Source: an uncultured Planctomycetales bacterium (lineage in GTDB: Bacteria; Omnitrophota; Gorgyraeia; Zapsychrales; JBDRMG01). Taken from it: 64,000 bases of DNA. Positions 1-20,177 of this stretch are shown here, one piece after another. The DNA lies in the NCBI GenBank assembly GCA_964478715.1, contig CAYZIY010000004.1, positions 43,351 through 107,350 on the forward strand. Direction: 5' to 3'. The first letter of the stretch is position 1, and every line of letters begins with the position of its first letter. Under the pieces are notes generated by a model that saw nothing but the letters and a program-made list of their open reading frames with translations, ran no database searches and was not told the origin of the DNA. The position numbers and the translations under genes are program-made.

Positions 1-3000
1 CGCCGCCGTCGTTTCCGTCGCTGATGTTTTTATACTTTCCGCGGAACTCATCGAAGAGATTGCGCATGACAACTTTTTGATAATCACCCAGGATCGCGCG
101 CTCTTTTCGAACCGTTTTGCCGCGGCCGTCAGCAAAGAATGAATCAATGGTCGCGCCCCCTAAATCAACCTCGCCTTTGGAAAGATCGATATTGCGGGCC
201 AGTATTTGATGCGTGAGTTTTCCCGTATATGGTGTCTCTTGGACCATGTGCCTGAGTTTTTGAAGATTGGCAGGTAAATTAGCGGCATCCAGTTCATCCA
301 TACCGGCCTCTCTCATCAACCGACCTTGTTCCTCGGCTAAAATACTTGATACCGTTCCCTCAGTAAGCTGCAGGCCGCGAAGCGATTTTTTAAGCGCTCC
401 TGTATCCAGCGCGGTAATACCCATTTCGTTAACAGTCTGGAGGGCTAAATCGGATATAATCGGATCACCCGCCTGCGTGGCCTTTTGAGGAAGATTAAAT
501 AATACAGCCGCCGTAAGCTTTTCATCTTCATCCCCGATATAGGTCCGTTTTTCCTGCAAAATCAACTGGCGCGGCGTTAAAGAGGCAGCCTGCTTGGAAT
601 CCATCTTAGCCAGCAAGTCTTTAGAGAAGGCGCGCTTGTCATAGGTTTGAATATCCAATTTGGAAGCGGCACCCTTGCCTTTGCGGCCCCAGAATTCAGC
701 CACGCCTCTCATGTGCTTGGCCTCGTGACTGCGGTCGATATCAGCCTCTTTGAAATCTGTCAGGAATTGTACCGGCTTGCCGTATTCAGACCGGGCCATA
801 TATTGAGTAAGCTGTTCATCGGATAAATCCGCTATGGCATAGTATTCCCCGTCGGCAAAGACATGCTTGATCGTTTGATGATCTTTAAGAGCCGCCAAGC
901 TCAGCCCGCTGATATCTCTTTCGAGTCCGCCCTCGGCTTCGTTATACTGCGCTCGGTAAGCGGCCTGAAGTTCCTTGAAGGTATCGCCTTTTTTGTTAAA
1001 ATAACGACGGCCGACCGTATCCACTGAAAGAGTGGTCCCGTCATCCAGAGCCATGCGGGTAATGCCCATTTTCACAGACGCCCCGTCTTGGTCGGTATGA
1101 TTATAAAGATTTAAAGAATTGACCCGCATGCCCAGCTGAACGCGATCGTACTGTCCGTCAGCTCCTTTTGATTCAAACACAGCCAAAGGATCGCTTTGGG
1201 CCAACCGCAGAGCGGTTTCAAATCCCTGGGAACCTCTTGCATATCTTTTGCCGCCAACCGTCACGGCATCCACATCCTGGCCTTCAACAACAGCCAATCC
1301 TTCTCCGGCCCCGGCGAAAATATATTGCTTTTCTCCAACAGGAAGATGGACTCTGATGCTGGTATCAGGGATGGGCACCAGACGGGTTCCCTGTTCGGTA
1401 GTAATTAACTCGGCCTCCTGAAGCTCGGTGATGTTTCCTTCCTTATCCCGTTTGGTCACCTCATAGTAGCGCGCCTGAGGATCGGCCTCAGCCATTTGAA
1501 GAGCCTTGTTCCAGTCTTCCTGGGTGACCTGATCTCTTCTAACCTTTCGTCTGACGAGCTGGCCTGTCGTTAAATCAACATCAAGAATTTCGACCTGTCC
1601 CAAATCTCCATAATGCGCCGCCTGAGCCGGCACCAAGCTCGAGGTAAAAACCTGCGTTTCTCCAAAACGCGAAGCATAATTACCGCTTTTTGCGTTTTTA
1701 TCATAAATGGAAACAACCACTTTTTTATCTTTGGTCAGCTGATTGGTTGTCAGTTGGAATCTTTTCTTTTTGGTGGTTTTGCGGTTAAAAAGCTCTCCTA
1801 AAAACCGGCTTCCCAAAACCGGCTCAGCTTTCTTTTCATTGATCAGTTCGAAATCAAGAGTGACATCCCGGCCGGCCATTACGCTTTCATCCAAAAGACC
1901 GCGCACCCGGAAATTATCTCCGACTTTGGCCGCATCAGCATCGCTGTCTTCCATGAATCGATCAGGAAGCGCGGCCGTAAAGAAGGGTTTTTCGTCAATA
2001 TTTGTCTCAAAGAGAATATCCTCATCATCCATATTGAGTTTTTTCTGCCAGCCGGCGCTCAATGCGCCCATATGCAGAACCAGGGTCTTGCGGTCCATAA
2101 CGCCCATGCGGTAGGAATTCATCAGAGGTCCGTCAATCCAGTGCAGGGTCTCGGTGGCATCACCCAAATCCCGTTCGGCAAAGAAACGAAAATGCGTATT
2201 TTTTCCCTGGTCTTTAAGCTCTTTGGCCAGAACTTGATCATAAATTTGTTTCTTTTTCTTATCGGCGCTGGCCACCTCTTCCCCGTGGCTTTTGAGGACA
2301 TTTTGATAAGCTCCCTCGGCAATCATTTGAGCCGCCTCTGGAGTGTCAACTAAACTGTAAAGCGCGCCGATATAGGCTGACTCTCTGGCAGCTTCTGCCT
2401 CCTGAAGCACTCCCGCGTCAATCAGAAAATCTTCATAAGCCAATTGCCCGGCCGCCAGCGCTTTTTCTTTGGCCGCATTATCCCGTCTGACCAATTTGAT
2501 TCCGCGCTCATTGAATCCCAGCATATTGGCCAAATTATATCCGGTCATCACCGCATAACGCTTTTCGGCATCTGTTTTGGCCCGGTCTCTGGCCGCTTCG
2601 GCTTCTGATTCGCTCTGGCCGTTAGCTAAGGCAAGCTGATAGGCTTGCTTTCCGGCTTTCTCGCCAGCTTTGGTGCGAGCAGACGCGTATTTGCTCGTGA
2701 CGCGGTTTTTCTCCAATTCTTTAGCCACGGCAGCCATTTGTAAATCGCCTGTTTGTTTAAGAACTTCAAGAAATTTCTTTTCGCCCATTCTTTCGGCCAA
2801 CTCATCCACGGTCAATTCTTCCCGGCCTTTTAATCCGACTAAGGGACCGATCACTTCCCCTAAAGCAAGGCTGGTCACCCCCGCGGCCGCCGAAACCATA
2901 TTTTTTCCCATACGGGAGCTGAATTGCTCATAAGTGCCCTGATGGCTCATGGCCCGCATCGTGCCCCAAAGATTTTCTTTCCATATCCCTTCGGCATATT

Positions 3001-5820
3001 CTTCGGCACTTTTGCCTTCAAACAGCGCATTGAATTCTTTTTCCGAAATAGCTCCGACTTCCAGAAGATTTCTTGCTTCTTCGTATTGCTTATTGACCTG
3101 ATCAACGATCTCTTTTTTAGCCGCTTTGAGCTGAGCCAAATTGGAAGCGGACACTCCGCTTAAGACTCCCAGATTATCCACCATAGTATTAGCGTCCATA
3201 ATGGAACGCTGGCGTCTCATCAAGAGTCCGCCGCCTTGATCAATGGACACGCCAAAGAGGGCATCGGAGATATCAGCCACCAGAACTGTTGAGAAATCAT
3301 TCCACAAATTCTCCCCGATTCCCCGGCCATCACGCTTGGTCAGACCGGTAATGCCCGCCAGAGTCGCATCCGCAAGGGCCATCAGAGCAAAGCCCTTAAC
3401 CGAGAATTCCATCTTGGTCTTTTGTTTGGCCTTGCGGGTGGCCCATTCTTCTTTGCTCATGCCCTGGTATTTTTCCTGAAATTCTTCCTTCGTCATGCGG
3501 TTGCCGCGCACAGCCCAGATATCATCTTCATATTCCTGCATGGCTTTAGCTTTATCCGCCTGGATCATCCTTGATCTATTATGTGCTTTGTCGATTTGGT
3601 GAGCAATGAGTCCCAGCACAGCCGCGCGGGTAATCGGATTAGCCAGAACGCGATGAACATATTTGAGGAATGAATTTTTGTTCTCACTTCTTATGTTTGG
3701 TCTTCCTTTGTTTTTGACGCGCCCGATCAGATAATTACCGATCGAACCGCTTGTGCTCTCTAGGGCCATCATCAAAAACTGATGATCACCGTCTAAATCC
3801 AGATCTTCTTTACCCATTTTCCCGCGAATCGCATTGATCACCGCTACCATACTATAGGTGACACCGGTTGAGATGGCCTGATTGCCGATAGCCGGCAGGA
3901 CATAATCGGTAATTTGCGTGCCCATTTCTTTAAAGAAATTATTTCCGGCATCCACGCCAAAATCTCCGGCAAACCAGTTGTTCTCACCGCCGTCAAGTGT
4001 TCCCAGCTTATCAATGCCAAAGGTTAAACCGGCCATTACCGGAGTTGAGACAGCCGTTGAGATCATGCTGTTGAGACCGTTTCGCAAGATTGGATTTTTG
4101 ACCTTGTCTTCATCAAGAAGCAGAGGTTCGACAATATAGATATCCACCGCTGTTTTAAATCCACCGTAAATAAATCCCTTGCCGAATCCGGAACCGATTT
4201 TCTCCAGGCAATCGCCAATGGTGATATCGGTGAACATGTCGATGCCGGTTGCATCGAAAATCTTAGTGAACATCTCTTCCATAGTGCCGGTCAAACTGTC
4301 GGCCATGGTTTGGCCCAGAATATTTCCGGCATTTTGGGCAAAAAGTTCTTCGGTAAGTTTTTTTAGATCTGTTATCTCACTTTTTAAAAGGTCTAAAAGC
4401 TGGCCATCAATGACCTGATCATATATGCTCTTAACCGCCTCGTCGGACAACTCATCAAGGGTTTGACCAGCTTGCAAAACTCCCCGCTTTCTTAAGGCTT
4501 CTTGATAGGATTTCAAAGCCCCGCGCATAGCATCAGTGGTCGCATCCATCAGGCGCTCCTGAAGCATTTCATCAAAAATAGAATCCTGAAAAGCGCTGAA
4601 TCCCATGGTAAAAGCGTATCCGAGAGCACTGCTTAATATCGTTCCCCAGGTTTCATTCCACCAGCCCTTTTTGATGCCCAAATACATCACCGCTGCCTGC
4701 ATGCGGCCAACTGCTTGGTTGACCATGGCGCTATTCATTCCCATCCATAAAAGATCTTTGAAAGAGAGAATTTCTTTAAGGCCTGTCAAATGGCCGAAAA
4801 ACGCACCTCCAAAAACAGCCAAAACACTAAATCCAACGCTCGCACCAATATTGCTCCAAGCCTCTTTGCTGGTCAAACCAGGATAGTCATCCCAGTGACT
4901 CTTCCAGCCTGATCCCCATACAAAAGCCAGAACTTCATCCGGAACACGTCTCACTTCCTCTGGTTTGTCCAGACTGGACGCTAGAACAATTCCTGTGGAA
5001 TCACGCATAAAATCCTCTTTGGACAAAGTCATGGCATTTCCAAGATCAGTAAAATAGACATTGTCTTCATCAAAACCTGTCACCATCACAAAGTGTTCCT
5101 GCTTTAAGCTGGCTAAAAACGGAGGGGGGAAATAAGAAAGATGCTCCGGCTGGATCCTGAATGCCTTATAATCCAAACCATAAGCGGCAGCCAATTTATT
5201 GATGGCAAAAAGAGAGGTTTTAAGTTTGGGATCACCGGCTTTGATCACATCATACAGTAAATCAATCAAAATCGTGGCTACCGAGAGTTCTTCCAAGGTG
5301 GTATCTACTTCATGAGCGGTTAATATGTCCTTCAGGGCATAAATTCCGCAGTTTAGGGGGTGAATCTCAGGCTCTCTCAGCCAAAGGTAAATGTTCTCAA
5401 TGTCTTGAGAAGTGAATGACCGCTCAGATTCCAGTAAAAGCGAAGGCGCAGTTGATTCATCGGCATAATCGGGAAGATTATTATTCGTTAGGCGGATATG
5501 GAGTTTGGGGTCTTTTTGATGGGCAATCTGGTTCAGGAAATATTCGACATTTCCGGCAATTTGAGCGGTTCGGATCTCTTCTTGAGAGGCCTGCGGGCTG
5601 ATATAACGCGAAGCCTGTTCTTTGTGCAGGACATAAGGATTATAATTGATGGCCCAGGCAACTTGTTCCGGAATGAAACAGGCAAGGACAACAATGGCAG
5701 CAATTTTGATCCATTTCTTGAAACGGCTTTGAAATGGCTGATCAACAACAATATCAGTTTTACTCTGGCCTGAGTCTTCTGATTCGCTGTTATTTATGTC
5801 CATTCTTTCATTCATTTGCA
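1..5820 (-). CDS. Giant membrane-anchored protein, 5' part only (more than 1940 codons in window; the ORF runs off the left edge, so it is absent from the ORF track). After the N-terminal TM helix there is a papain-like/C39-like cysteine peptidase motif.
   Basis: Hand translation of the minus strand from the ATG at 5818-5820 (MQMNERMDINNSESEDSGQSKTDIVVDQPFQSRFKKWIKIAAIVVLACFIPEQVAWAINYNPYVLHKEQASRYISPQASQ...) stays open through 5040 and, by spot checks, to position 1. A hydrophobic segment IAAIVVLACFIP follows a charged N-terminus. Q...LNCGIYALKDIL followed by QEHFVMVTGFDEDNVYFTD resembles the Gln/Cys ... His/Asp spacing of Peptidase_C39-like domains. The downstream region is Ala/Lys/Glu/Gly-rich with no recognisable catalytic motif. 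Confidence 0.6.
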
Positions 5821-6003
5821 TTACCTAAGGTTTAACTTTACCGTTTTATAAAAAAACCCATATTCGACTCGCGAATATGGGCTATAAATTTCCAATCAAA
5901 AAAATTAGAACTATTTATACAATAGTATAAACATTTATTCCGTGGTTTTACATAATTAATTGTCATTCCGTGGCTTCCCTTCCTGTTGGCCAGACAGTAC
6001 GGG

Positions 6004-6051
6004 CAGAAAAAATAAAAAGGCTGCCGAAAACCAAATGGATTTCGGCAGCCT
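6004..6051 (-). terminator. Rho-independent terminator (hairpin GGCTGCCGAAA / TTTCGGCAGCC, with a T-tract on the minus strand).
   Basis: Perfect 11-bp inverted repeat 6019-6029 / 6040-6050. On the minus strand the stem is followed by TTTTTATTTTTTCT (plus-strand 6004-6018 aaaaaataaaaag). It lies downstream of the tadC stop and upstream of the giant gene start. Confidence 0.5.
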
Positions 6052-6422
6052 TATAAATCTAAATTAGATCATTTCTGATCCCGTGGCTTTGCAACCGCTT
6101 TTCTGGCGATTACCTTTTCGATTCCATCAACTGCATTATAAATATAACATATATAATGCAGAAGTCAAGAAAACGGGATTTTTTTAGACCGATTAATTTC
6201 TGTTATTTCAATATGTTACAAACTTATCAAAAATATATTGAAGTATTTTAATAATTCTACTTTATTTTATTTATATTAATATACCTATTAAAAATGTATA
6301 AATTTAGAGGTAACGGTTTTTTAGAATTTTAATAGAGTATTCCTGAATGGACAATTATTTTAATAATTTTTTAAATGGACATTATCTTCTAAGCGCTAAA
6401 TGAATTTATTGTCCAATTTGGA

Positions 6423-7313
6423 TTATCGAATCGCGCTATTAAGACTGCCAGCGGGATTTCTATGGAAGAAATCCATCAATATGGGGCCGGCCACAAGAAT
6501 AGCCACAACCGGAAAGATGCAGAATAGAAGGGGAACCAGCATTTTCAGGGGCGCCTTGAGAGCAATCTGTTCTCCCCTGCGAAAACGGGCTAAACGCATA
6601 TCCTCAGAAAGAATGTTAAGAGCTTCGGCCACCGAAGTCCCCATCCGATCAGCTTGAATAAGCGTACGGGTAAAGGTCGATACATCGGTGAGATCATATT
6701 TTGAAGATAAGTCTTTTAGAGCCGCTTTGCGGGTTTTACCGACATTGATCTCCTGCATAATCAAATTCAGCTCATCGGTTAAAACAGACTTTTTGGACTT
6801 TTCAATCACCCACTTTAAGGCCAGCATAAAATCCAGCCCGGCATTGACACACAGCGCCAGAAGATCGATCATATCAGGAAGTTCTTTAATAATTTCGTTC
6901 TTTATTCGCTTAATCTTGGCCTTGAGCCAAATTTCCGGAAACATATAACCAAAAACAAAACAAAGCAAACCCCAAGCCATAATGAAATCGGGATTCTTGG
7001 GATAAAAAATGATCATGAGGATAATAATAAGAAGCTCCTTGATCAGAAGAAACTCCTCAGGAGTCAGGTTCACCCTCGCCACAGCAATATCCTTGGCCAT
7101 ACGCTTGCCCAGAGGACCAGCGCAAATCGGCTTATTGAAGGCGGCAACCGCCCGGGTAATCTGTTTGATTAAAGGAGTCTTTCTTTTCTCGACGGGAGCA
7201 TGCGGATCGATAGGACGCAAACGCGGCCTGTTTTCCACGTCAATGAAAGCCGTCACAAAAACCGTCAGGCAAATAATCGAGCTGAATATCAATAAAGTAA
7301 TTGCGGTAACCAT
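6423..7313 (-). CDS. tadC: Tad pilus inner-membrane platform protein TadC (GspF/T2SSF family).
   Basis: 296 aa with multiple TM segments and a GspF-like cytoplasmic region (…DELNLIMQEINVGKTRKAALKDL…). It is the second of two adjacent T2SSF-like genes, and its start abuts the stop of the preceding gene (shared 7313). Confidence 0.75.
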   Translation of the reverse strand: MVTAITLLIFSSIICLTVFVTAFIDVENRPRLRPIDPHAPVEKRKTPLIKQITRAVAAFNKPICAGPLGKRMAKDIAVARVNLTPEEFLLIKELLIIILMIIFYPKNPDFIMAWGLLCFVFGYMFPEIWLKAKIKRIKNEIIKELPDMIDLLALCVNAGLDFMLALKWVIEKSKKSVLTDELNLIMQEINVGKTRKAALKDLSSKYDLTDVSTFTRTLIQADRMGTSVAEALNILSEDMRLARFRRGEQIALKAPLKMLVPLLFCIFPVVAILVAGPILMDFFHRNPAGSLNSAIR

Positions 7314-8170
7314 TAAAAATCCTTGAATTTGCTGATTTTATAAATCAAAAACATCCCGATCAGCTGAAGACAGCTGGCCAAAACAAGCAGATTCTTCCCC
7401 TGCTGGGTTTCCAGCATGACATCAAAGAAATGCTTGTTGGTGGAAAGAACGATCATCAAAAAGCCGATCGGCAAAGCGCTCATAATGATTCCCTGGAGTT
7501 TGCCCTGCAGAGTCAAATTCCTGAGATTCTCTTTGATTTTATTGTTTTCCCGGATGGTGGTCACGATGCGGTTAAAGATCACAGGAAGGTTTCCTCCGGT
7601 TTCCCTGGCCAGAAGAATGGCCGTAATCAGCTGGTGGAGCGCGTTTGATGGCACCCGTTCATAAAGCCGGCTGAACGATTCCTCCAGAGAAACTCCCATC
7701 TTATTTTCTCCCAATAAGATGCCAAACTCCTGGCTGATCGGAGGCGGCATCTCTTCATTGACCACCTCCATGGCCTGAATAATGCTTAAACCTCCTTTCA
7801 GCGAGCTGGACATGATCATAAGGGAATCAACCAGTTGATTCTGAAATCTTTCTTTTCTCTGCTCGGCAAGCATTTTGACATAGATGCTGGGGCCGATGAA
7901 GCCCAAAACCACGCCGGCGACAACGCCGATAAGCCGAAAGGCGGGAAAAAAATGAAACCCGGCCAGACCCAAAAGAGGCGGTCCTAATGAAAAAAGAAGA
8001 ATCACTTTGGTGGGTTTAACCCGGACAAAAATCCGATCCATATCATCCACCAGGGACTCGGAACGCTTACGCTGCGCCGAAACATAAAGACCCGTGGCCG
8101 AGGGGATAATAATATAGGCGATTAAGGCCGCCGAAGCAAAAACCAGAGTGAGGATAACAACCAGAAGCAT
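7313..8170 (-). CDS. tadB: Tad pilus inner-membrane platform protein TadB (GspF/T2SSF family).
   Basis: 285 aa, TM-rich, with a T2SSF-like motif region (…LLGENKMGVSLEESFSRLYERVPSNALHQLITAILLARETGGNLPVIF…). It is immediately upstream of tadC. Confidence 0.75.
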   Translation of the reverse strand: MLLVVILTLVFASAALIAYIIIPSATGLYVSAQRKRSESLVDDMDRIFVRVKPTKVILLFSLGPPLLGLAGFHFFPAFRLIGVVAGVVLGFIGPSIYVKMLAEQRKERFQNQLVDSLMIMSSSLKGGLSIIQAMEVVNEEMPPPISQEFGILLGENKMGVSLEESFSRLYERVPSNALHQLITAILLARETGGNLPVIFNRIVTTIRENNKIKENLRNLTLQGKLQGIIMSALPIGFLMIVLSTNKHFFDVMLETQQGKNLLVLASCLQLIGMFLIYKISKFKDF

Positions 8171-8220: not shown

Positions 8221-8652
8221 TTAAAGAACGCCGGCGCAGCAGGCATCGCAGCAGCGGTCGCATTTGATAAAATCCCCTGAGGCGCAATCTACATCACCGC
8301 AGGCCGCGGAATCCCATAGAGTATAAAGCATACAGCTTTTGCGGCAATCATCATAACATTGCTGGTAGTCATCGGCATCGTACCATTCATTATTAAAGGG
8401 ATTGAGCGCTTCTTCATCAATGATTTTATCGGGATCATACTGCATGCCCTGGCCGAAGATATCGCCGGTCATTTTCCAGCGGCCGGCAAACCCCCGGACA
8501 ATGAATTTCTGCATGGTTAAAACGGCTGCTAACAAGAGCGTTAAGAAAACCGAATATTCCAAAATAGCACTGGCCTTAGATTGTTTGAAATTCCTTAATA
8601 ACATGAATGGGTTTACTTTCTTTAAAAAGGATTCGCTCCGTCTTTGCCGCAA
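8221..8652 (-). CDS. Flp/TadE-like prepilin N-terminus fused to a small Cys-rich C-terminal domain.
   Basis: …KQSKASAILEYSVFLTLLLAAVLTMQKF… fits the [GA]/xxxxEY-hydrophobic Flp leader. The C-terminus is CYDDCRKSCMLY…CGDVDCASGDFIKCDRCCDACCAG. The true start may be the internal Met (MLLRNFKQSKAS…, about 8604), because 8622-8652 overlaps the upstream gene. Confidence 0.5.
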   Translation of the reverse strand: MRQRRSESFLKKVNPFMLLRNFKQSKASAILEYSVFLTLLLAAVLTMQKFIVRGFAGRWKMTGDIFGQGMQYDPDKIIDEEALNPFNNEWYDADDYQQCYDDCRKSCMLYTLWDSAACGDVDCASGDFIKCDRCCDACCAGVL

Positions 8653-11600
8653 GGAACAAAATGAACCTGAAAACCATTGCTGAAGCTAAAGGGCCACCTG
8701 TTCTGACGGAAACTATAATCCGCGCAGGTGTCTGACATCACGCCTTTCTTTAATAATCGCGAAGCCGCATCAAAGCAGGGTGAGCAATTGGACTTTTCGA
8801 CCACATATCTACCGGACAATTGATTACATGTCTGATCGAATCCCCAGCTAAACGCACCGCCACCAAGCGGATCCGCGGGGGTAGAAACACCGTCATTGTT
8901 AATCATAAACGATCCGTCTTCGCTTTTGTCACAATACGTTTCAATCGCGGCAATATCAGCCGCCGTTGATCCCTGCTGGGCCGGATGGCGGAAAATAAAT
9001 TTCCACAAGGGCACATTATTGGCAAATTTCAAGGAGAGATCCCGGTCCTGATCATAAGTGATCACCCGTGATTTGACCCGCCCGCCTTGGAAGCAATCTT
9101 TGGCAGCATCGAAACCGCTTAAATTATCATCATCGCAATGGCTTTCTGGATAAGCGTAGCTGTCCAGCAAGGTGTAACACCGGCTCATCCCCCGGTTTTT
9201 GTTATAGGTTTTTATCCACGGCCAGCGGGGCTCGGCCAATTCCTCTTTGCGGGAACATTTGCCGGCGCATTTTCCTGGCATCGCCGCCTGGGACTGGACT
9301 AAATGCCAGTATCCTTTGGGGTCTTTGTAACCGTAAATCACCCAGGGAGCCAGTTTAGCCAGTTCATAGCGATTATTTTCCTCCAAATCTTTCCAATACT
9401 TAATAATATCGTCTACTCTACCGTCATTGAGCAAGCCATCTATTTTATTCATGGCTGTTTGAAGCTCATCAAGTTTCTCCTGGGCCTCATCGCGGACACC
9501 TTGGAGATAATCCCTGCGGATTTCAAACATGCGGGCTTCTTTCAAAAGATTAAACATGCTAAAGAACAAAGCATCAAAATATGTTCTATCGGGAATATTA
9601 TGCGGAACCATGCAATATTCATAATTATCCGCGTCAGGAAAAGAATCCGGATTGGAGATCCCGATGGGATTATTAGACCAGCAATCGTCTCCGCAAGTAT
9701 TAAAACAATAATCGCCGGTGCCGGGATCGCTCCACGCGCATTTGATCATGCAATTATAGACGATCCCCGCTCTTTGAACCCGGTTAGTGATTTGATTATC
9801 AAGGCAGTTAATAATACCCGGTAATGTTTGGCCGTTACAGACCGCCGGAGAGCCGGGATCATTAAATGCGACAGAATAACTCCCGACGCCGTTGGCCCAT
9901 CCGTTGATGTAACGATGGATTTTATCTATACTTTCACGTAACTCCATCAGCTTTCCGTCGTTGGAATCAAGAACGCTCATCGCCTCAGCAATCCAGGTTG
10001 AGAATTTCGCGTGCAAGCGCTCCGGCGTTTTATTTAAAATACTTTTGGCCCAGTCGATAAACTCATCAATCAGAACGCGGGAATAATCGGTATTATCCTC
10101 AACCCAATAATGCCATCCGCCGGGTGGAGGGCATGACCAACTTGTCAGGTCCTGACCCGGATCTTCCCAAGCGCAGTCATAATCCCAATCTTCGGGATCG
10201 TGATCGACCAACTGCCGCGCGCACAGCCAACCATTGTGACAGTCCCGGTCGCAGTGCTTGCCCGGGCAATCATTCTGATAAGGAAAATTCACAGAACAAA
10301 AATCATCCACGCCTTTTTTCCAGAAAGGAGGCTCTTCACTCTCGAGATCCGGACATTCGTTTTGCGGAATTTCCAAATCATCCGCATAATGAAAATTATC
10401 CGTGAGATTATTAGTAATACAGCAGTTGGCGGGATTCCAGTCATTGAAATGATACTCATCAATGGAGCCAAACCCGCAAGTGGGCGCCGTAGAAGCTGAA
10501 GTGACAAAATAAGAATCGGCAAAATCAAAGGCAAAAACCTGCGGACCGGAATCTGTCGGTAGAGTAAAGCTTCCATTGAGATTCAGATTACCGCAGTCCG
10601 GATGATAACTATGACACCAGTCGCACTCATACGTTCGATCTTCGGGCACAGCCGGAGGCCCCAGACCGACCGTGCCGGATTGACCGTCGTCAGGCAGATT
10701 CCATTTCTGATACTCTTTCGCCAATTTCCAGAAATAGGGATAAAGGATGCCTTCCGCATCCTCTTGTCGCCAGAAACCATCCACAGAAGCTGGATCGATA
10801 TTGATCTCATAATCATCCGAAGGACCGGCGGGGTTTAAAGGACTGGTCTTTTTATCCTTGCGGGTATCACCCCTCCAGTATCGATTATTATCATCCCGCC
10901 CGACGAACTCCCGAAAAGACACGAATTGCCCCGCTCCGGGATTATTGTTGTATTTATTCTCAGCGTATCGATCATAGACATTGGGCCAGTCATGATCCGG
11001 GCAATCAGTTGAAACCCCGCATTCGTCCGGCCCGCCGGTATCACAGCAGCTCGGACGGAGATTGGGCTCATCGGCAATCGGTGGTAAAACATCAGGCCTC
11101 AGCCCGGAATCTCCTTTAAAGGTATTGTTGTAGCTGGGCTCGCTGGGATAAGTCTTCAGTTTTCTAAAAAATACTATTTTTTTTCCGAATGGCGTAGTTA
11201 TTTTTTCTTCAAACCAGGTTCCAGTTCTACCCTCTGTCTTGGGAAGACAACAACAATTGCAATAGGCAGGTTTGGGGTCTTCACAGCATTCATGCTTGGG
11301 ACCAGCGTCCGGACAATAATTCCCGACCGGATCCCACAAGCCCCAGTTATCATTGACACCTTTCCATTCTTTTAATAAAAACTCTCCAATGGCTTTCTGA
11401 AATTTTTCAATCGCTTCTATCCGCGAATCAGCTCCCACCAAAGCCAGGCGGGAAACACGCTCATGCATATGATAGGTGAGGCGAGAAACTTTATCGTCAG
11501 TGGCATCAGGCCCCCACATCCCGTCCATGTCCATGTCCATAAAGTCGATCATCTTCTCCTGGTCCATCACCGCGTTTTGCAAGCCCAGCATCACACCACG

Positions 11601-12149
11601 CTCTAAAAATCCATCAACAATATCCAGGTCAATAGCTTCCAACATTTTGTTCCACTGATCGGTAATGCCGGGCTCGATCTCGGTTAAAGAAATACTTATC
11701 GATATAGCAGTAGCAACGGCTGCTATGATAATCCCCACCGCTAAAGAGGCCCCGGAGCCGCCGGTAGCAATCGTTACAATAACGGCCAGGATGACGCTGG
11801 CAATAAAAGTAACGACCGCCGTAAAGACATCGGTATGCTTGCAGGCCGTGAGATCGTCTCCGAACTCTTCGTCGCCCGCGTGTTGATAATAATACTCCGC
11901 GTAAGAAGCCATTTCCGAGGCCAAGAAAGCGGCCGCCTGATTGCTGGCTAAAGTGGCGGCTGTTTTGGACTGATTGATCCGTCCCAGATTGAGCGTGGCC
12001 GCGAAAAAGATCAGAGCTACCGCGAAAACCAAAACAAGAATCACCGCTACCTGGGCCCGCCTGGAAAGCAAGCTAGAGGATTTTGAAACAACCTTTCCAT
12101 TTATTTTACGGGAATGTCTTTTGATAAGATGGTTAAATATTTGAAACAC
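8622..12149 (-). CDS. TadG-like pilus-associated giant protein (1175 aa) with an extremely Cys/Trp/Asp-rich extracellular region.
   Basis: The N-terminus …LLSRRAQVAVILVLVFAVALIFFAATLNLG is TadE/G-like, followed by a second hydrophobic segment. The remaining roughly 1000 aa carry dozens of Cys in CC, CxC and CxxC clusters (CCEDPKPAYCNCCCLPK, CDWCHSYHPDCG, CPGKHCDRDCHNGWLC) plus W/D/P-rich stretches. It sits between the TadE-like gene and tadB in the operon. Confidence 0.6.
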   Translation of the reverse strand: MFQIFNHLIKRHSRKINGKVVSKSSSLLSRRAQVAVILVLVFAVALIFFAATLNLGRINQSKTAATLASNQAAAFLASEMASYAEYYYQHAGDEEFGDDLTACKHTDVFTAVVTFIASVILAVIVTIATGGSGASLAVGIIIAAVATAISISISLTEIEPGITDQWNKMLEAIDLDIVDGFLERGVMLGLQNAVMDQEKMIDFMDMDMDGMWGPDATDDKVSRLTYHMHERVSRLALVGADSRIEAIEKFQKAIGEFLLKEWKGVNDNWGLWDPVGNYCPDAGPKHECCEDPKPAYCNCCCLPKTEGRTGTWFEEKITTPFGKKIVFFRKLKTYPSEPSYNNTFKGDSGLRPDVLPPIADEPNLRPSCCDTGGPDECGVSTDCPDHDWPNVYDRYAENKYNNNPGAGQFVSFREFVGRDDNNRYWRGDTRKDKKTSPLNPAGPSDDYEINIDPASVDGFWRQEDAEGILYPYFWKLAKEYQKWNLPDDGQSGTVGLGPPAVPEDRTYECDWCHSYHPDCGNLNLNGSFTLPTDSGPQVFAFDFADSYFVTSASTAPTCGFGSIDEYHFNDWNPANCCITNNLTDNFHYADDLEIPQNECPDLESEEPPFWKKGVDDFCSVNFPYQNDCPGKHCDRDCHNGWLCARQLVDHDPEDWDYDCAWEDPGQDLTSWSCPPPGGWHYWVEDNTDYSRVLIDEFIDWAKSILNKTPERLHAKFSTWIAEAMSVLDSNDGKLMELRESIDKIHRYINGWANGVGSYSVAFNDPGSPAVCNGQTLPGIINCLDNQITNRVQRAGIVYNCMIKCAWSDPGTGDYCFNTCGDDCWSNNPIGISNPDSFPDADNYEYCMVPHNIPDRTYFDALFFSMFNLLKEARMFEIRRDYLQGVRDEAQEKLDELQTAMNKIDGLLNDGRVDDIIKYWKDLEENNRYELAKLAPWVIYGYKDPKGYWHLVQSQAAMPGKCAGKCSRKEELAEPRWPWIKTYNKNRGMSRCYTLLDSYAYPESHCDDDNLSGFDAAKDCFQGGRVKSRVITYDQDRDLSLKFANNVPLWKFIFRHPAQQGSTAADIAAIETYCDKSEDGSFMINNDGVSTPADPLGGGAFSWGFDQTCNQLSGRYVVEKSNCSPCFDAASRLLKKGVMSDTCADYSFRQNRWPFSFSNGFQVHFVPCGKDGANPF

Positions 12150-12176
12150 ATTACCCTCGCTTATACTTTTGCGTCA

Positions 12177-12455
12177 TCAATAATGAATCATGTTAAGCTT
12201 TTCAAACTCGTAAAAAATGGGATTGGTCTGCTTCATGGGTCCTTCATCACCTTCAAGAAGGCCCCAGTCTTCCTCGATCCCCTGGGTCAATTGATCATCG
12301 TGAGATTTCCGGCCGCTGGCCAAGCTAGCCCCGGCCCAGCGAAAAGCCATCACGCAGGCATAAATTAAAATAAGAACGATGATAAAGCTGAAGGTGAATT
12401 CGATCATCACTTGAGCTTTTCCTGTTTTGATTTTTGCTTTCAAAGACAATAACAT
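12177..12455 (-). CDS. tadE: TadE-like minor pilin / pseudopilin.
   Basis: 92 aa; …KTGKAQVMIEFTFSFIIVLILIYACVMAF… has the Flp/TadE leader with E at +5 followed by a TM helix. Confidence 0.6.
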   Translation of the reverse strand: MLLSLKAKIKTGKAQVMIEFTFSFIIVLILIYACVMAFRWAGASLASGRKSHDDQLTQGIEEDWGLLEGDEGPMKQTNPIFYEFEKLNMIHY

Positions 12456-12467
12456 TAATCCTCATCC

Positions 12468-13910
12468 TTATTGAATCGGCATTTGGTCATCACTGACATC
12501 GACCGTCCATCTGTGACCGCCGCGATCCTCGATCCGGCTGCGGATATAAAAAACTTTTTGCTCTTCATCGAAGCAGTTTTTAAACATATTGGCATCACTG
12601 AGACAGTCATTACAGGATTCCACATAGGGATTGACCTTATAATTAGGAACACCCTCACCTACGTCCCAACTTTTCCCCGTCCCATTGCCGCACAGGCGCC
12701 CGGTATCATTACTGAGCTGAAATTTGCGCTCAATCAAAGACAACCGGTCGGTCATGCGGGTGTTGCGCACCACCTGGCCGCCGGCCGCAACTAATTTTCC
12801 CTCTTCAATGCGCAGCAGTGTCCCGTCGCGGGTTTCGGTATAGATTCTGGTCTCATCCATCAGGCCCGGCTTTTTCTGATCCGTTCCCCCGGGTTCAGCC
12901 GGTGTCGGCCCTCCCACATAGTCATAGGTATTATAGGTTTGATCATAATCGCCTTCCTGCATATCCAAAACCCAGGCATATTTGACGATCCCTGAACCTT
13001 CACACCCGTATATTGAAGAAGGAGAAGAGGAATACTGCCACGGGGCTGTCGTATTAAACTGAGCCTGATTAGTGTCTTCCAGGCCGAACACTTTTTCTTC
13101 TTTCAGGTCTCCGTCGACATCGTAACTCAGCGTAGCGCCTTCCTCAATAAGAAAATTCTCTGTCAGGCCTGGAACCTTGCGCCATTGCCAGGCCATTCGA
13201 TTGGGATACATGACATCGCCGTCTCTATAAATGAATCCCCCATAATGTATTGTTTCTCCTGTTGCGCCGTTGCGATTATAATCAAATCTTTCTGTGTCGT
13301 TTGAATCCCAGTCCGCGCTCACTCCTGCCGGCCCGGGAATTTTCGTATAAAAAACAGGACAATCGAAGCCCGCGCATTCCCCGGCTTCCATCGAATCGGG
13401 AACAAAGACAGAATCCGGATGTTCCGTGCACTGGCCTTCATCATCCGCAAAACAATAAATCCGATAGGCGGCCACGCTTAAAGGGAAATGCTCGCCGTTA
13501 ACATATAAATCCATCACCGGCACTTCGTCATCCTTTCCGAATTCCGCCGGCATCATCAATTTGTTGGTCATACTGCCGCCGCCGCCAAACACATAAGCGC
13601 TGCGGGCTTCGGGACCGTATTTGCCGCTGCTGCCGGTCACATCAACATCCTTGCGGTCCTCGATCACCAGAACGCTGGCCATGATGCGGGAGGAATTCTC
13701 TGCCTTCCCGGAAGAATCAAGCTGCCAGGAAGAATGAAAAGACTTTGTTAAAGCCAGGCGCGTCGCTTTCATCCAGTGGTTTTGCACATTATTGCTGTGG
13801 CTGGCGTAGCGGATCAACAGCCCCAGCATAAAAAGCAAAATCACGCCGAAAGCGGCGAGTTCGGTGGCGGTTTGGGCTGATAATAATTTACGTTTTTTTC
13901 GATTTCTCAT
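12468..13910 (-). CDS. TadF-like pseudopilin with a large (about 430 aa) C-terminal extension.
   Basis: The N-terminus KRKLLSAQTATELAAFGVILLFMLGLLI has a TadE/F-type leader. The C-terminal region is Gly/Asp/Tyr-rich with scattered Cys. It lies immediately downstream of the Flp array. Confidence 0.55.
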   Translation of the reverse strand: MRNRKKRKLLSAQTATELAAFGVILLFMLGLLIRYASHSNNVQNHWMKATRLALTKSFHSSWQLDSSGKAENSSRIMASVLVIEDRKDVDVTGSSGKYGPEARSAYVFGGGGSMTNKLMMPAEFGKDDEVPVMDLYVNGEHFPLSVAAYRIYCFADDEGQCTEHPDSVFVPDSMEAGECAGFDCPVFYTKIPGPAGVSADWDSNDTERFDYNRNGATGETIHYGGFIYRDGDVMYPNRMAWQWRKVPGLTENFLIEEGATLSYDVDGDLKEEKVFGLEDTNQAQFNTTAPWQYSSSPSSIYGCEGSGIVKYAWVLDMQEGDYDQTYNTYDYVGGPTPAEPGGTDQKKPGLMDETRIYTETRDGTLLRIEEGKLVAAGGQVVRNTRMTDRLSLIERKFQLSNDTGRLCGNGTGKSWDVGEGVPNYKVNPYVESCNDCLSDANMFKNCFDEEQKVFYIRSRIEDRGGHRWTVDVSDDQMPIQ

Positions 13911-13929
13911 GATATCTAACTAAAGCGTG

Positions 13930-14241
13930 TCAATAATTCGGGACATTGGTCTGGCCTGTTTTTGTTTCGGTGGCATAGGCCGAGTCTTTCTTTTTCGACC
14001 AGTAGCTTCCAGCTTCCTCCTGAATCGACAATTCGGACACACTGTTTCCGACAGTGGTAAAAGTGATGTTGCTCACCGCGACCGTCGGATCGTATTGATC
14101 GCCGAAATTATCTATCTGCCCTCTCCAGCGACCCTGAATCCCGCGCTTGATATAAATGGTCATGGCCAGCAGAGCGCCGGCCACGACAATGATAAGAATC
14201 GAATATTCAAGCGTTGACTGGGCTTTTCGTATGCATTTCAT
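13930..14241 (-). CDS. flp: Flp-family pilin paralog 7 (103 aa).
   Basis: MKCIRKAQSTLEYSILIIVVAGALLAMTIYIKRG: prepilin motif A/QSTLEY plus a hydrophobic helix. RBS AAGAGG is upstream. Confidence 0.65.
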   Translation of the reverse strand: MKCIRKAQSTLEYSILIIVVAGALLAMTIYIKRGIQGRWRGQIDNFGDQYDPTVAVSNITFTTVGNSVSELSIQEEAGSYWSKKKDSAYATETKTGQTNVPNY

Positions 14242-14281
14242 TTTATCTAACCTCTTACTTGCGCGGCTTATCTCTTTCGCG

Positions 14282-14632
14282 TTAATACGTGCGGTTCGTT
14301 AATCCCATATTCACGATCGAAGAGCTTTCTTCTTCGGAAGAATCTCCGTAAATATAATCGATCGCGCCCCCCGGGCTTTGCAATAATTGTTTCCCCTGAG
14401 TATAACGGACAGCGGAATAGCTCTCTTCAATATAGCCGCTGGTTTCATCGATCTGCTGTTCGGCGCATTGCTGAATGCCGACCTGATCCGATGCCATTTT
14501 GATGGTCGCCTGGACACTGCGCATCAGAAAAGGGCGCATTAAAATTAAAAAGGAACCCACCACGCCGGCCACCAGAAGATATTCCATCAAGGATTGGGCT
14601 CTGTTATTAAAATGTCTCGATATTTTTCTCAT
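14282..14632 (-). CDS. flp: Flp-family pilin paralog 6. Start refined to the internal ATG at 14632; the track ORF is extended upstream with no pilin context.
   Basis: MRKISRHFNNRAQSLMEYLLVAGVVGSFLILMRPF from the ATG at 14630-14632. The leader is A/QSLMEY. Confidence 0.55.
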   Translation of the reverse strand: MRKISRHFNNRAQSLMEYLLVAGVVGSFLILMRPFLMRSVQATIKMASDQVGIQQCAEQQIDETSGYIEESYSAVRYTQGKQLLQSPGGAIDYIYGDSSEEESSSIVNMGLTNRTY

Positions 14633-14633
14633 A

Positions 14634-15005
14634 TTAATCGGCCTCACCGGGCGGCGCTGTTTCTCCCTCGGATATGACGGAAGTCGTGTCTGTGTCCGCG
14701 CCCTCATACTCTTGTCCTGTAGCCAGCGGAAACAATTGATCGATATCTTGGGTTTGCTGTTTGATCTCGCGAGTGGAATTAACATAATACGGCTCGTACT
14801 GATCAACGAAATCACCCGCGGATCCGGAAACATAAAAAGCGGTTTTGGCATCGGCGAAGGAGCGGTCATGGGCTCCTTTCATCGCCGCCATGAAACCGCG
14901 CTGGACATAGACGCTTATTCCTGTAATCGCGGCCACGACCAAAGCCAGCAAAATCGCCTGTTCGCTGATAATCTGAGCCTTTGTTTTCTTAATTCCTTTA
15001 AACAT
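14634..15005 (-). CDS. flp: Flp-family pilin paralog 5 (123 aa).
   Basis: MFKGIKKTKAQIISEQAILLALVVAAITGISVYVQRG; the C-terminal tail is acidic and Thr-rich. Confidence 0.6.
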   Translation of the reverse strand: MFKGIKKTKAQIISEQAILLALVVAAITGISVYVQRGFMAAMKGAHDRSFADAKTAFYVSGSAGDFVDQYEPYYVNSTREIKQQTQDIDQLFPLATGQEYEGADTDTTSVISEGETAPPGEAD

Positions 15006-15171
15006 TCTACGCCTTATTTATATTAAAGCTTGTTGATAATTGAAGTCAACATTTAATACTAATATTAATAATTCTGAAAGAAACTGCCGAAAAAACTGGC
15101 CTGCCACAATATCTTCCTCCCGGCAGGCCAGTTCTTCTCATTCTTTGATCAACGTGTACTCGACAAACTGA

Positions 15172-15504: not shown

Positions 15505-15560
15505 GATTTTATTTCACCTCCCTAAATAAAATATATCAACACAGATCATCTGCTGTCGGC

Positions 15561-20168: not shown

Positions 20169-20177
20169 CGAGGGAGA

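What the first reader, a model, noticed from the sequence alone, without database searches (positions are those of the whole stretch)
1..5820. Giant (more than 1940 aa, truncated) membrane-anchored protein with a C39-like cysteine peptidase motif, invisible in the ORF track
The minus strand is open from the ATG at 5820 to the window edge, so it does not appear as a complete ORF. After one TM helix it has Q…NCGIYALKDIL…QEHFVMVTGFDEDNVYFTD, reminiscent of papain-like/C39 peptidase Gln-Cys…His-Asp geometry. It continues as more than 1600 aa of Ala/Lys/Glu-rich sequence. Giant surface or secreted proteins with an autoprocessing peptidase module are candidates for toxins or host-interaction factors. 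It lies directly downstream of the Tad operon, separated by a terminator.
Basis: partly seen in the sequence, partly recalled or inferred. Interest (0 to 1): 0.6.

Follow-up and report, generated by a model that had tools for sequence, protein, structure and literature searches.

The report
Head of an Omnitrophota giant gene
This is the first 1,940 codons of one of the very long, fast-evolving membrane/surface genes that Omnitrophota bacteria carry next to a Tad-like pilus/secretion locus; the architecture (export signal plus C39 protease at the start) is already described, but comparison with relatives here adds a candidate cut site and a riboswitch that can be tested.

Summary
The ORF is real: the minus strand is open for 1,941 codons to the window edge, with the ATG at 5821 (not 5820). 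Residues 157-281 match Pfam Peptidase_C39 above threshold. An AlphaFold model (pLDDT about 95) matches solved double-glycine proteases, and Cys158 and His243 are invariant in 66 relatives. The window is from an Omnitrophota genome. The gene follows a Tad/T2SS-like locus exactly as published for Omnitrophota giant genes (West-Roberts 2023), so this is a new member of a known kind. The same head starts ORFs in 67 GTDB Omnitrophota species; 33 are still open after more than 3,500 codons. After about residue 315 nothing is conserved: the tail has no relative among 1.84 billion proteins. Two details are absent from the three Omnitrophota papers read. First, one double-glycine-leader-like motif with an invariant Gly303 sits right behind the protease, at the conservation boundary, once per protein; it is a candidate self-cleavage site. 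Second, c-di-GMP-I-clan riboswitches lie upstream of the head ORF in 16 related loci, with a divergent, sub-threshold copy plus a strong terminator in this window's leader. The claims of Ala/Lys/Glu richness and a catalytic Gln are not supported.

The parts
2..5821 (-). 5' part (at least 1,940 codons) of a giant gene; the C-terminus lies beyond the window edge
   Evidence: Open frame 5824..2 with no stop, ATG at 5821. GC and codon usage resemble neighbouring genes.
5642..5725 (-). N-terminal export signal or signal-anchor (aa 33-60: RFKKW-IKIAAIVVLACFI-PEQVAWA|INY) with an AxA-type c-region
   Evidence: Kyte-Doolittle peak of 2.06. W37, F49, P51, Q53 and A57 are 100% conserved, Y60 97%, and position 55 is S or A in 63 of 66. 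K+R averages 3.2 on the N side and 1.3 on the C side across the family. Cleavage by signal peptidase I is inferred.
5372..5638 (-). Conserved helical/beta linker subdomain (aa 62-150) between the signal and the C39 core; no Pfam match
   Evidence: AF2 pLDDT is 81-97 from aa 71 on. L96 is invariant and W147 is 98% conserved.
4973..5353 (-). C39 cysteine peptidase domain (aa 157-283); Cys158 = 5348-5350, His243 = 5093-5095, Asp259 = 5045-5047
   Evidence: Pfam PF03412, 42.3 bits, E = 8.3e-11. Foldseek best hit 6MPZ, TM 0.72, 25% identity. His and Asp align with LahT150. C158 66/66, H243 66/66, D259 59/66. Coordinates verified.
4904..4951 (-). Double-glycine-leader-like motif RRVPDEVLAFVWG303S|GW (aa 291-306); candidate C39 self-cleavage site; Gly303 = 4913-4915
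   Evidence: Hydrophobic residues at -4, -7, -12 and -15. G303 is 66/66, V/I301 66/66, V/I/L293 65/66; one subfamily reads LTDKEAKxVLGA. The motif occurs once per protein in 165,701 aa. pLDDT is 96 for aa 291-300. Cleavage is inferred.
4586..4864 (-). Gly-rich hydrophobic region (aa 320-412) with at least one TM-like segment (aa 325-343)
   Evidence: Kyte-Doolittle 1.78 at aa 325-343. Only weakly conserved in the family.
2..4834 (-). Orphan, hypervariable body (aa 330-1940); aa 1001-1200 (2222-2821) is the only Ala/Lys/Glu-rich stretch
   Evidence: aa 741-1940: 0 hits among 1.84 billion representatives. aa 330-1940: no tblastn hit in 72 related loci. No Pfam, NCBIfam or PADLOC domain. No internal repeats. 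AF2 model unusable, pLDDT 36.5.
6141..6168 (-). Promoter-like site (TTGACT-16-TATATT with TG) in the TadC-to-giant-gene gap
   Evidence: 10 of 12 consensus matches. This is a consensus match only.
6040..6124 (-). Divergent c-di-GMP-I-clan (GEMM-I-like) aptamer candidate in the 5' leader
   Evidence: Rfam RF01051, 24.7 bits, below the gathering score of 35, full model length. A model built without the window gives 28.1 bits, E about 9e-6, best hit in 64 kb (next best 12.8 bits). One helix that is invariant in relatives is broken.
6001..6055 (-). Strong intrinsic terminator whose 5' arm (GGCUGCCGAA) is the aptamer's 3' strand; expression platform
   Evidence: 13-bp stem, -25.7 kcal/mol, z = -6.5, followed by UUUUUAUUUUUU.
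5845..5883 (-). Second terminator-like hairpin with a T-run, about 25 nt upstream of the ATG
   Evidence: 12-pair stem. -16 kcal/mol, z = -2.9.
6423..8170 (-). TadC-like and TadB-like platform genes (T2SSF), immediately upstream of the giant gene
   Evidence: Pfam T2SSF, 55.6 and 62.3 bits. The same pair lies upstream of the head ORF in 54 of 67 related loci.
8221..28747 (-). Rest of the Tad/T2SS-like locus: pseudopilin-like genes, 6 or more Flp/class-III-signal pilins (13930-16366), DUF192, TadZ-TadA fusion, secretin-TonB_C, RcpC, Rotamase_2 PPIase, two Cys-rich pilin-like genes
   Evidence: Pfam hits. Weak Class_IIIsignal and Flp matches. Leader sequences read. The gene set matches the locus described.

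Best explanation
Window 2-5821 (minus strand) is the 5' end of an Omnitrophota 'giant gene', placed as in other members of the phylum directly downstream of a Tad/T2SS-like pilus-secretion locus.

Shown: its first ~315 residues are a phylum-wide conserved head made of four parts. These are an N-terminal export signal or anchor, a small linker domain, a C39 (double-glycine-type) cysteine peptidase with the Cys-His-Asp triad intact, and one leader-like motif ending in an invariant Gly303. Everything after that is a hypervariable, orphan body.

Inferred mechanism: the positive-inside pattern and the AxA-like site suggest that Sec exports the head, so the peptidase faces the periplasm. The peptidase then most likely cuts once, at or next to Gly303 in its own chain (in cis, or between neighbouring copies). 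That would separate the conserved secretion/processing head from the variable body. The body would then act at the envelope or cell surface together with the Tad-like machine in attachment to or attack on host cells.

Transcription enters the gene through a leader carrying a GEMM-I-type aptamer fused to a terminator. In relatives this is a bona fide c-di-GMP-I-clan riboswitch wired as an ON switch. In this window the aptamer is divergent and may no longer sense a ligand.

My sub-probabilities: identity as an Omnitrophota giant-gene head, about 0.9. Peptidase catalytically active, about 0.6. Single self-cleavage at the Gly303 motif, about 0.35.
For: Identity. The ORF is open for 1,941 codons. 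GyrA's named best hits are nearly all Omnitrophota at 72-80% identity. The head was found in 60 proteins and in 67 GTDB species genomes, essentially all Omnitrophota. The head ORF is still open where the fetched DNA ends in 59 of 67 loci, 33 of them after more than 3,500 codons. The TadB/TadC pair lies upstream in 54 of 67. In L002 the head is followed by a 14,858-aa ORF. The locus content (Rotamase_2, RcpC, secretin, GspE-type ATPase, GspF x2, class-III-signal genes) equals the published description.

Peptidase. Pfam C39 is above its cutoff. The AF2 model has pLDDT about 95 over aa 80-300. The best PDB matches are LahT150 with bound leader, ComA and PCAT1. C158 and H243 are 66/66 and D259 is 59/66.

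Cut site. The motif has double-glycine-leader spacing. G303 is invariant, and one subfamily reads LTDKEAKxVLGA, close to the canonical LSxxELxxIxGG (the consensus is from my knowledge of class II bacteriocin and ComC leaders). It occurs once per protein. It sits about 10 residues before the point where all similarity ends. It is confidently packed in the model.

Topology. K+R averages 3.2 on the N side against 1.3 on the C side, and S/A-x-A precedes residue 58.

Leader.
Against: No experiment and no model coordinates were available, so I could not measure whether Gly303 lies in the active site.

The canonical oxyanion-hole Gln six residues before the Cys is absent from the family.

The residue after Gly303 is Asn or Asp in 27 of 66 sequences. 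Known C39 enzymes accept Gly, Ala or Ser there (from my knowledge).

The invariant Gly and high pLDDT could simply reflect a structural C-terminal extension of the domain.

Where the head is a separate 400-480-aa gene (L002, L004), cutting at the motif would not free the giant body.

Only 45 of 66 sequences follow the positive-inside pattern on net charge, and no dedicated topology predictor was available.

The window's aptamer is below Rfam's threshold and lacks an invariant helix.

The true length of this gene is unknown, and some relatives (P0001, P0003) end at about 2,100 aa.
Confidence: 0.6

Rival explanations
1. The C39 head does not cut its own chain. It is a binding or docking module, like the C39-like domain of HlyB. 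It would hold the leader-like motif as a bound pseudo-substrate, or tether the nascent giant chain to the Tad/T2SS-like machine.
For: The canonical oxyanion Gln is missing. Asn or Asp follows Gly303 in 27 of 66 sequences. The HlyB C39-like domain (3ZUA) and the Vibrio C39-like domain (3B79) are among the best fold matches. The motif segment is confidently packed onto the domain.
Against: C39-like chaperone domains have lost the catalytic Cys (from my knowledge of HlyB). Here Cys158 and His243 are invariant in 66 sequences that are only 25-50% identical, which argues for retained catalysis.
Confidence: 0.2
2. The C39 domain cuts the giant polypeptide at many internal sites, turning it into a polyprotein. 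This is the hypothesis raised by West-Roberts et al.
For: The hypothesis is published. The Cys-His-Asp triad is intact.
Against: The only conserved leader-like motif occurs once per protein. It has no recurrence in about 140,000 residues downstream of the heads, against 0-1 hits in reversed controls. The window's body has just four loose G[GAS] sites with partial spacing. Looser or unrelated sites were not excluded.
Confidence: 0.1
3. The head acts in trans on other proteins of the neighbouring locus, for example by maturing the Flp-like pilins and pseudopilins in place of a TadV prepilin peptidase.
For: Pfam scans of the window ORFs of 120 aa or more, plus selected small ORFs, found no A24 prepilin peptidase. 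At least ten pilin-like genes with class-III-type leaders lie upstream. The head is always adjacent to TadB/TadC.
Against: Pilin leaders read K/R-[G/A] then QST-EY. They have no Gly at -2 and none of the leader spacing. Prepilin leaders are cut at the cytoplasmic face (from my knowledge), whereas the C39 domain is predicted to be periplasmic. A TadV gene may lie elsewhere in the genome.
Confidence: 0.08
4. The long open frame is not a functional gene. It would be a decaying pseudogene or an assembly artefact.
For: The body has no relative anywhere. The protein is absent from the 5.8-billion-protein collection although the source contig's GyrA is present.
Against: 1,941 codons without a stop. 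GC and codon usage are native-like. The head is conserved with an intact active site. An independent Logan assembly carries the same first 1,055 codons.
Confidence: 0.02

Closest known systems
Omnitrophota giant genes with an N-terminal C39 domain (West-Roberts et al. 2023, bioRxiv 10.1101/2023.11.21.568195; the PF03412 architecture cluster in bioRxiv 10.64898/2026.06.07.730766)
   Same: Same phylum. A C39 domain next to a predicted signal peptide at the N-terminus. A preceding secretion locus with gspD/E/F, rcpC, Rotamase_2 and class-III-signal genes. A poorly conserved, mostly unannotated body.
   Different: Only 1,940 codons are visible here, so the size class is unknown. No SecA_DEAD, GGDEF or carbohydrate-active domain appears in the visible part. 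The downstream PilZ genes cannot be checked. The single leader-like motif and the upstream riboswitches are not mentioned in those papers.
C39 peptidase domains of peptidase-containing ABC transporters (LahT150 6MPZ, ComA 3K8U, PCAT1 4RY2)
   Same: Same Pfam family and fold. The catalytic Cys, His and Asp align. A leader-like G-[S/A] motif with hydrophobic residues at -4, -7 and -12 is present.
   Different: It is not fused to an ABC transporter. It is predicted to lie outside the cytoplasm behind a signal sequence. It lacks the Gln at -6. The putative substrate motif is in the same chain, C-terminal to the enzyme, rather than at the N-terminus of a separate small peptide.
C39-like domain (CLD) of HlyB-type RTX exporters (3ZUA)
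   Same: Same fold. It is associated with the handling of a very large secreted protein.
   Different: CLDs lack the catalytic Cys and do not cleave (from my knowledge). Here Cys and His are invariant.
LapG/LapA adhesin release system (from my knowledge; not tested here)
   Same: In concept: a periplasm-facing cysteine protease cuts a giant surface protein once near its N-terminus, under c-di-GMP control.
   Different: LapG belongs to a different protease family and is a separate protein. LapA is exported by a type I system, and control works through the LapD receptor rather than a riboswitch. This is an analogy only.
c-di-GMP-I (RF01051) and c-di-GMP-I-GGC (RF03167) riboswitches
   Same: In relatives, hits above Rfam's gathering score lie upstream of the head ORF, with terminator expression platforms. 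The window's leader keeps AAAAGG-AA, the GAAA hairpin, GCAAAGCC and GGCUGCCGAA.
   Different: The window's copy scores 24.7 bits (gathering score 35). It has lost the invariant CGG/CCG helix and reads GUUGCAAAGCC where relatives read GGCGCAAAGCC. The ligand of the GGC variant was not established by anything I read.

Membership tests
Peptidase C39 (PF03412) | Match to the family HMM above the curated gathering score | tested here: met
   42.3 bits against a cutoff of 22, aa 157-281, profile positions 12-127 of 133.
Peptidase C39 (PF03412) | Papain-like fold superimposable on solved C39 domains | tested here: met
   The AF2 head model (pLDDT about 95 over aa 80-300) matches 6MPZ, 3K8U, 4RY2 and 7N87, with target TM scores of 0.66-0.76 for the isolated domains.
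Peptidase C39 (PF03412) | Catalytic Cys and His, with Asp completing the triad | tested here: met
   C158 66/66, H243 66/66, D259 59/66. The positions align with those of LahT150.
Peptidase C39 (PF03412) | Oxyanion-hole Gln about six residues before the Cys | tested here: not met
   No conserved Gln lies near C158. The only Gln conserved in the head is Q53, in the signal region. The profile alignment shows that the family lacks the Gln-bearing segment of LahT150.
Peptidase C39 (PF03412) | Cleavage after a Gly-Gly/Ala/Ser leader motif | not testable with these tools
   A candidate motif exists, but cleavage needs biochemistry or proteomics.
Peptidase-containing ABC transporter (PCAT/AMS) | C39 domain fused to ABC transmembrane and ATPase domains | tested here: not met
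   No ABC_membrane or ABC_tran domain in 1,940 aa. The NCBIfam NHLM_micro_ABC1 match covers only the peptidase part, at 30 bits against a cutoff of 853.
HlyB-type C39-like domain (CLD) | Catalytic Cys replaced; the domain is inactive | tested here: not met
   The Cys is invariant, so this is not a CLD.
Omnitrophota giant gene (as described by West-Roberts 2023) | Encoded in an Omnitrophota genome | tested here: met
   GyrA's named best hits are nearly all Omnitrophota at 72-80% identity. Head relatives are found only in Omnitrophota MAGs.
Omnitrophota giant gene (as described by West-Roberts 2023) | C39 domain near the N-terminus, next to a signal peptide | tested here: met
   Signal/anchor at aa 33-60 and C39 at aa 157-283.
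Omnitrophota giant gene (as described by West-Roberts 2023) | Preceded by a multi-subunit T2SS/T4P-like locus (gspD, gspE, gspF, rcpC, Rotamase_2, class-III-signal genes) | tested here: met
   All of these were found at 6423-28747 on the same strand.
Omnitrophota giant gene (as described by West-Roberts 2023) | Extreme length (tens of thousands of residues) | tested here: inconclusive
   At least 1,940 aa, truncated by the window. The source contig is 155,887 bp but could not be retrieved. Relatives range from about 2,100 aa to 14,858 aa, and 33 are still open beyond 3,500 codons.
Omnitrophota giant gene (as described by West-Roberts 2023) | Numerous transmembrane helices and a SecA_DEAD domain; PilZ genes downstream | tested here: inconclusive
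   There are two strong and several weak hydrophobic segments, and no SecA_DEAD domain in the visible 1,940 aa. The downstream region lies outside the window.
c-di-GMP-I clan riboswitch (RF01051 / RF03167), for the leader at 6040-6124 | Score at or above Rfam's gathering threshold | tested here: not met
   Window: 24.7 bits against 35. Met in 7 relatives.
c-di-GMP-I clan riboswitch (RF01051 / RF03167), for the leader at 6040-6124 | All conserved helices can form | tested here: not met
   The CGG/CCG helix, invariant in 15 relatives, has no 3' partner in the window.
c-di-GMP-I clan riboswitch (RF01051 / RF03167), for the leader at 6040-6124 | Homology to validated aptamers at the same genomic position, plus an expression platform | tested here: met
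   With a window-independent model it is the best hit in 64 kb, at 28.1 bits and E about 9e-6. The terminator overlaps the aptamer's 3' strand.
Tad (tight adherence) pilus locus | RcpC/CpaB, secretin, TadZ and TadA ATPases, TadB/TadC, Flp-type pilins | tested here: met
   Pfam hits for all of these. The Flp and Class_IIIsignal matches are below Pfam's cutoffs, but the leaders are readable.
Tad (tight adherence) pilus locus | Dedicated A24 prepilin peptidase (TadV/CpaA) | tested here: not met
   None was found among the window ORFs of 120 aa or more or the selected small ORFs. It may be encoded elsewhere in the genome.

The most novel reading that the evidence does not exclude
The conserved head is a self-removing export module. 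A protease of the bacteriocin-leader (C39) type has been moved to the outside of the membrane and fused in the same chain, upstream of its own leader-like site. It cuts once at the invariant Gly303, exactly at the junction between the conserved head and the hypervariable body. Synthesis of the whole giant protein is gated by a c-di-GMP-I-clan (mostly 'GGC' variant) riboswitch wired as an ON switch. Neither feature appears in the Omnitrophota giant-gene papers I could read.
Probability: 0.3. Interest if true: 0.6.

Novelty: new member of a known kind. Interest (0 to 1): 0.4.

Why it matters
Giant genes take up a large share of the small Omnitrophota genomes, and nobody knows how their products are exported, processed or regulated. 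The main preprint states that no information on cleavage points exists.

This window adds no new kind of system. Comparing it with 66 relatives does yield three concrete handles:
- A sharply bounded, phylum-wide head module that can be used to find and classify these genes even in fragmented assemblies.
- One candidate cleavage site that can be tested with a 300-residue recombinant fragment, or by searching existing metaproteomes.
- A riboswitch link between a cyclic-dinucleotide-type signal and giant-gene expression. This would also give the orphan c-di-GMP-I-GGC variant a defined genetic context.

Tried and rejected
**Completing the ORF**
- An exact 60-mer from the window edge found nothing in the GTDB genomes or the JGI metagenomes.
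- Exact look-ups of TadC and TadB returned only a 5.7-kb Logan contig that ends inside the window.
- GyrA is 100% identical to a protein on a 155,887-bp NCBI contig, but that record is not indexed and carries no accession.

**Function of the body**
- Pfam, NCBIfam and PADLOC gave nothing beyond C39.
- The exhaustive HMMER search of aa 741-1940 gave 0 hits.
- tblastn of aa 330-1940 against 72 related loci gave no hits.
- Self-BLAST found no internal repeats, and a crude heptad scan found no coiled-coil stretch.
- Single-sequence AlphaFold of aa 1201-1940 gave pLDDT 36.5, which is unusable.

**Geometry of the motif relative to the active site**
- Model coordinates are not exposed.

**Ideas rejected or weakened**
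- Repeated cleavage sites carrying this motif.
- C39 acting as a prepilin peptidase: the leader motifs do not fit and the topology is wrong.
- Recent foreign origin of the tail: its GC and codon usage are native-like.
- The other Rfam matches in the leader (mir-7131, Phe_leader, Yfr11 and others) are just the terminator hairpin.

Full report
**1. The observation**

One base over, the minus strand is open from 5824 down to base 2: 1,941 codons with no stop, running off the window. ATGs lie at 5821, 5815 and 5803.

The quoted peptides are present: PLNCGIYALKDIL, and KQEHFVMVTGFDEDNVYFTD.

The composition claim is wrong. Overall the protein is 9.9% Ala, 7.1% Lys and 7.2% Glu. Only aa 1001-1200 are enriched in these residues.

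Besides the strong hydrophobic segment at aa 40-58, there is another at aa 325-343 and several weaker ones. No internal repeats or coiled-coil-like stretches were detected.

**2. The peptidase**

- Pfam Peptidase_C39 matches aa 157-281 at 42.3 bits, against a cutoff of 22.
- NCBIfam matches only the peptidase part of a bacteriocin ABC exporter model.
- phmmer and profile searches of the PDB find LahT150 (6MPZ), with the catalytic His, Asp and Cys aligned.
- An AlphaFold model of aa 1-340, built on 45 family sequences, has pLDDT about 95 over aa 80-300.
- Its best Foldseek matches are LahT150 with bound leader peptide, a Vibrio C39-like domain, the HlyB C39-like domain, PCAT1 and ComA.

Across 66 family members, Cys158 and His243 are invariant and Asp259 is present in 59. 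The canonical Gln six residues before the Cys is absent. The only conserved Gln, Q53, lies in the signal region.

**3. Context and taxonomy**

The upstream genes on the same strand form a Tad/T2SS-like locus:
- two T2SSF genes (TadB/TadC-like);
- large pseudopilin-like proteins;
- at least six small pilin genes with class-III-type leaders;
- a DUF192 gene;
- a TadZ-TadA fusion ATPase;
- a secretin with a TonB_C domain;
- RcpC;
- a Rotamase_2 PPIase;
- two Cys-rich pilin-like proteins.

The far end of the window holds dnaA, dnaN, gyrB, gyrA, yidC, parA and parB, which is the chromosomal origin region.

GyrA's best named hits are nearly all Omnitrophota, at 72-80% identity. One 100% identical protein sits on a 155,887-bp NCBI contig, evidently the window's source.

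**4. What is already known**

West-Roberts et al. 2023 state that full-length Omnitrophota giant genes carry C39 domains near the N-terminus, next to predicted signal peptides. They also report that these genes are preceded by a conserved secretion locus with gspD/E/F, rcpC, a Rotamase_2 isomerase and class-III-signal genes.

A 2026 preprint lists a 24-protein PF03412 group as one of its two largest architecture clusters among Omnitrophota long proteins. Seymour et al. 2023 describe Tad complexes and giant ORFs across the phylum.

The finding is therefore a new member of a described kind.

**5. The family**

The whole protein found only three relatives among 5.8 billion proteins, all similar only in the first 300-500 residues. 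A profile of that region found 60 proteins, nearly all labelled Omnitrophota and mostly contig-end fragments. It also found 67 loci in GTDB species representatives.

In those 67 loci:
- The ORF that begins with this head is still open where the fetched DNA ends in 59. In 33 it is still open after more than 3,500 codons.
- Both T2SSF genes lie upstream on the same strand in 54.

The head can be arranged in three ways:
- as a separate 400-480-aa gene directly before a huge ORF (L002: a 14,858-aa ORF follows; L004: ORFs of 2,370 aa and at least 1,901 aa follow);
- as the start of a roughly 2,100-aa ORF followed by more large ORFs (P0001, P0003);
- fused to a long open frame, as in this window.

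**6. The body**

- aa 741-1940 have no relative at E <= 0.001 among 1.84 billion representative proteins.
- aa 330-1940 give no tblastn hit even in relatives whose heads are about 50% identical.
- GC content and codon usage match the neighbouring genes.
- A single-sequence structure prediction failed.

Conservation collapses after about residue 315.

**7. A candidate cleavage site**

Directly behind the C39 core lies RRVPDEVLAFVWG303S|GW. It has hydrophobic residues at -4, -7, -12 and -15 relative to the Gly-Ser.

In 66 sequences:
- Gly303 is invariant;
- position 301 is always Val or Ile;
- position 293 is Val, Ile or Leu in 65.

The more distant subfamily reads L-T-D-K-E-A-K-x-V-L-G-A. This is close to the double-glycine leader consensus L-S-x-x-E-L-x-x-I-x-G-G that C39 enzymes recognise (the consensus is from my own knowledge).

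A position matrix of the motif finds it exactly once per protein in 165,701 residues. Reversed-sequence controls gave 0-1 hits. The segment is confidently modelled (pLDDT 96 for aa 291-300).

The published work never mentions a double-glycine motif and says that cleavage points are unknown.

Caveats:
- Asn or Asp follows the Gly in 27 of 66 sequences.
- The oxyanion Gln is missing.
- I could not inspect model coordinates.

**8. Topology**

The flank before the hydrophobic core is richer in Lys and Arg than the flank after it (3.2 against 1.3 on average). The core is followed by P-E-Q-x-[S/A]-W-A, an AxA-like site. From this I infer Sec export and a periplasm-facing protease, unlike the cytoplasmic C39 domains of ABC exporters.

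The anchor motif is as strictly conserved as the active site (W37, F49, P51, Q53 and A57 at 100%). That is unusual for a plain signal peptide and remains unexplained.

**9. The leader**

The 601-nt, 29% GC gap between TadC and the giant gene contains, in order:
- a promoter-like site at 6168-6141;
- a full-length but sub-threshold match to the c-di-GMP-I aptamer at 6124-6041, scoring 24.7 bits against a gathering score of 35;
- a very strong terminator (-25.7 kcal/mol, z = -6.5) whose 5' arm is the aptamer's 3' strand;
- a second hairpin with a T-run at 5883-5855.

In relatives, Rfam's curated models score above threshold just upstream of the head ORF in 7 of 16 loci tested. Six match the c-di-GMP-I-GGC variant and one matches c-di-GMP-I.

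A covariance model finds aptamers within 725 nt upstream, on the same strand, in 16 related loci. The structure is well supported there: 97.9% of cells are paired, 9 pairs change on both sides, and 0 of 500 shuffles reach the observed covariation score.

A model built without the window still ranks the window's element first in all 64 kb, at 28.1 bits and E about 9e-6; the next best hit scores 12.8 bits. However, the window's copy has lost a helix that is invariant in relatives. I regard it as a homologous but possibly degenerate copy.

In several relatives the sequence shown also has a terminator whose 5' arm overlaps the aptamer's 3' strand, for example in L006. The shared wiring implies an ON switch; this is inference.

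None of the three Omnitrophota papers mentions riboswitches.

**10. Verdict**

This is an ordinary member of a recently described, still poorly understood class. Its identity is secure.

The proposed mechanism is inferred and untested: export, a single self-cleavage at Gly303, and cyclic-dinucleotide-gated transcription.

Noticed in passing
window 6001-6168 (minus strand): The giant gene's leader holds a promoter-like site, a sub-threshold c-di-GMP-I-like aptamer and a strong overlapping terminator. Homologous aptamers that pass Rfam's threshold sit at the same place in relatives.
   Followed up: yes
L003 2335-2543 and 9732-9831; L055 38-129; L059 1858-2014; L061 2550-2636; L067 234-376; L073 906-1035: Additional GEMM-I-clan aptamer hits. 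L003 has one in front of each of its two C39 head genes. Several loci have a second copy kilobases upstream, possibly in front of other genes of the Tad-like locus.
   Followed up: no
window 5642-5725 (aa 33-60): The signal/anchor motif (W37, F49, P51, Q53, A57, Y60) is conserved as strictly as the catalytic residues across 66 sequences. That is more than export alone would require.
   Followed up: partly
L002 around 11441-11443: A single in-frame TAA separates the 480-aa C39 head from the frame that continues as the 14,858-aa ORF. It could be a real split, a sequencing error or read-through.
   Followed up: partly
L005 around 7620-7800: Just after the stop of P0001, the +1 frame encodes a stretch identical to P0001 residues around 500-560 (EKEKARRPEDNGSNRRGDEF...). 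This suggests a multi-kilobase tandem duplication or a misassembly.
   Followed up: no
L002 8574-9278 and L004 6637-7362: A Y1_Tnp (IS200-type) transposase gene sits between the TadB/TadC pair and the C39 head in two unrelated loci.
   Followed up: no
window 22341-24047 and 20178-22334: The secretin carries a C-terminal TonB_C domain. The ATPase is a fusion of a ParA/TadZ-like domain and a T2SSE (TadA) domain.
   Followed up: no
window 25980-28747: Two paralogous Cys-rich pilin-like proteins (355 and 469 aa) share an identical N-terminal stretch of about 40 residues (MSHGKKAQSILEFSTVITLVMAGAILMGPYLIRSINALLKN). A small Cys-rich ORF lies next to them. None has a Pfam match.
   Followed up: no
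window 8622-12149 and 16806-19199: A 1,175-aa Cys-rich pseudopilin-like protein and a 797-aa protein with a long acidic low-complexity region. Both lie inside the Tad-like locus and neither has a Pfam match.
   Followed up: no
window 50445-63578: The chromosomal origin region: dnaA, dnaN, gyrB and gyrA on the minus strand, and yidC, parA and parB on the plus strand. The Tad/giant-gene locus therefore lies within about 55 kb of the origin. Seymour et al. likewise place the V. archaeovorus LiM Tad locus at 12-30 kb of its genome record.
   Followed up: no
window 19824-20168 and 42808-43431: A DUF192 gene is embedded in the Tad-like locus next to the ATPase. An ankyrin-repeat protein lies among metabolic genes.
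   Followed up: no
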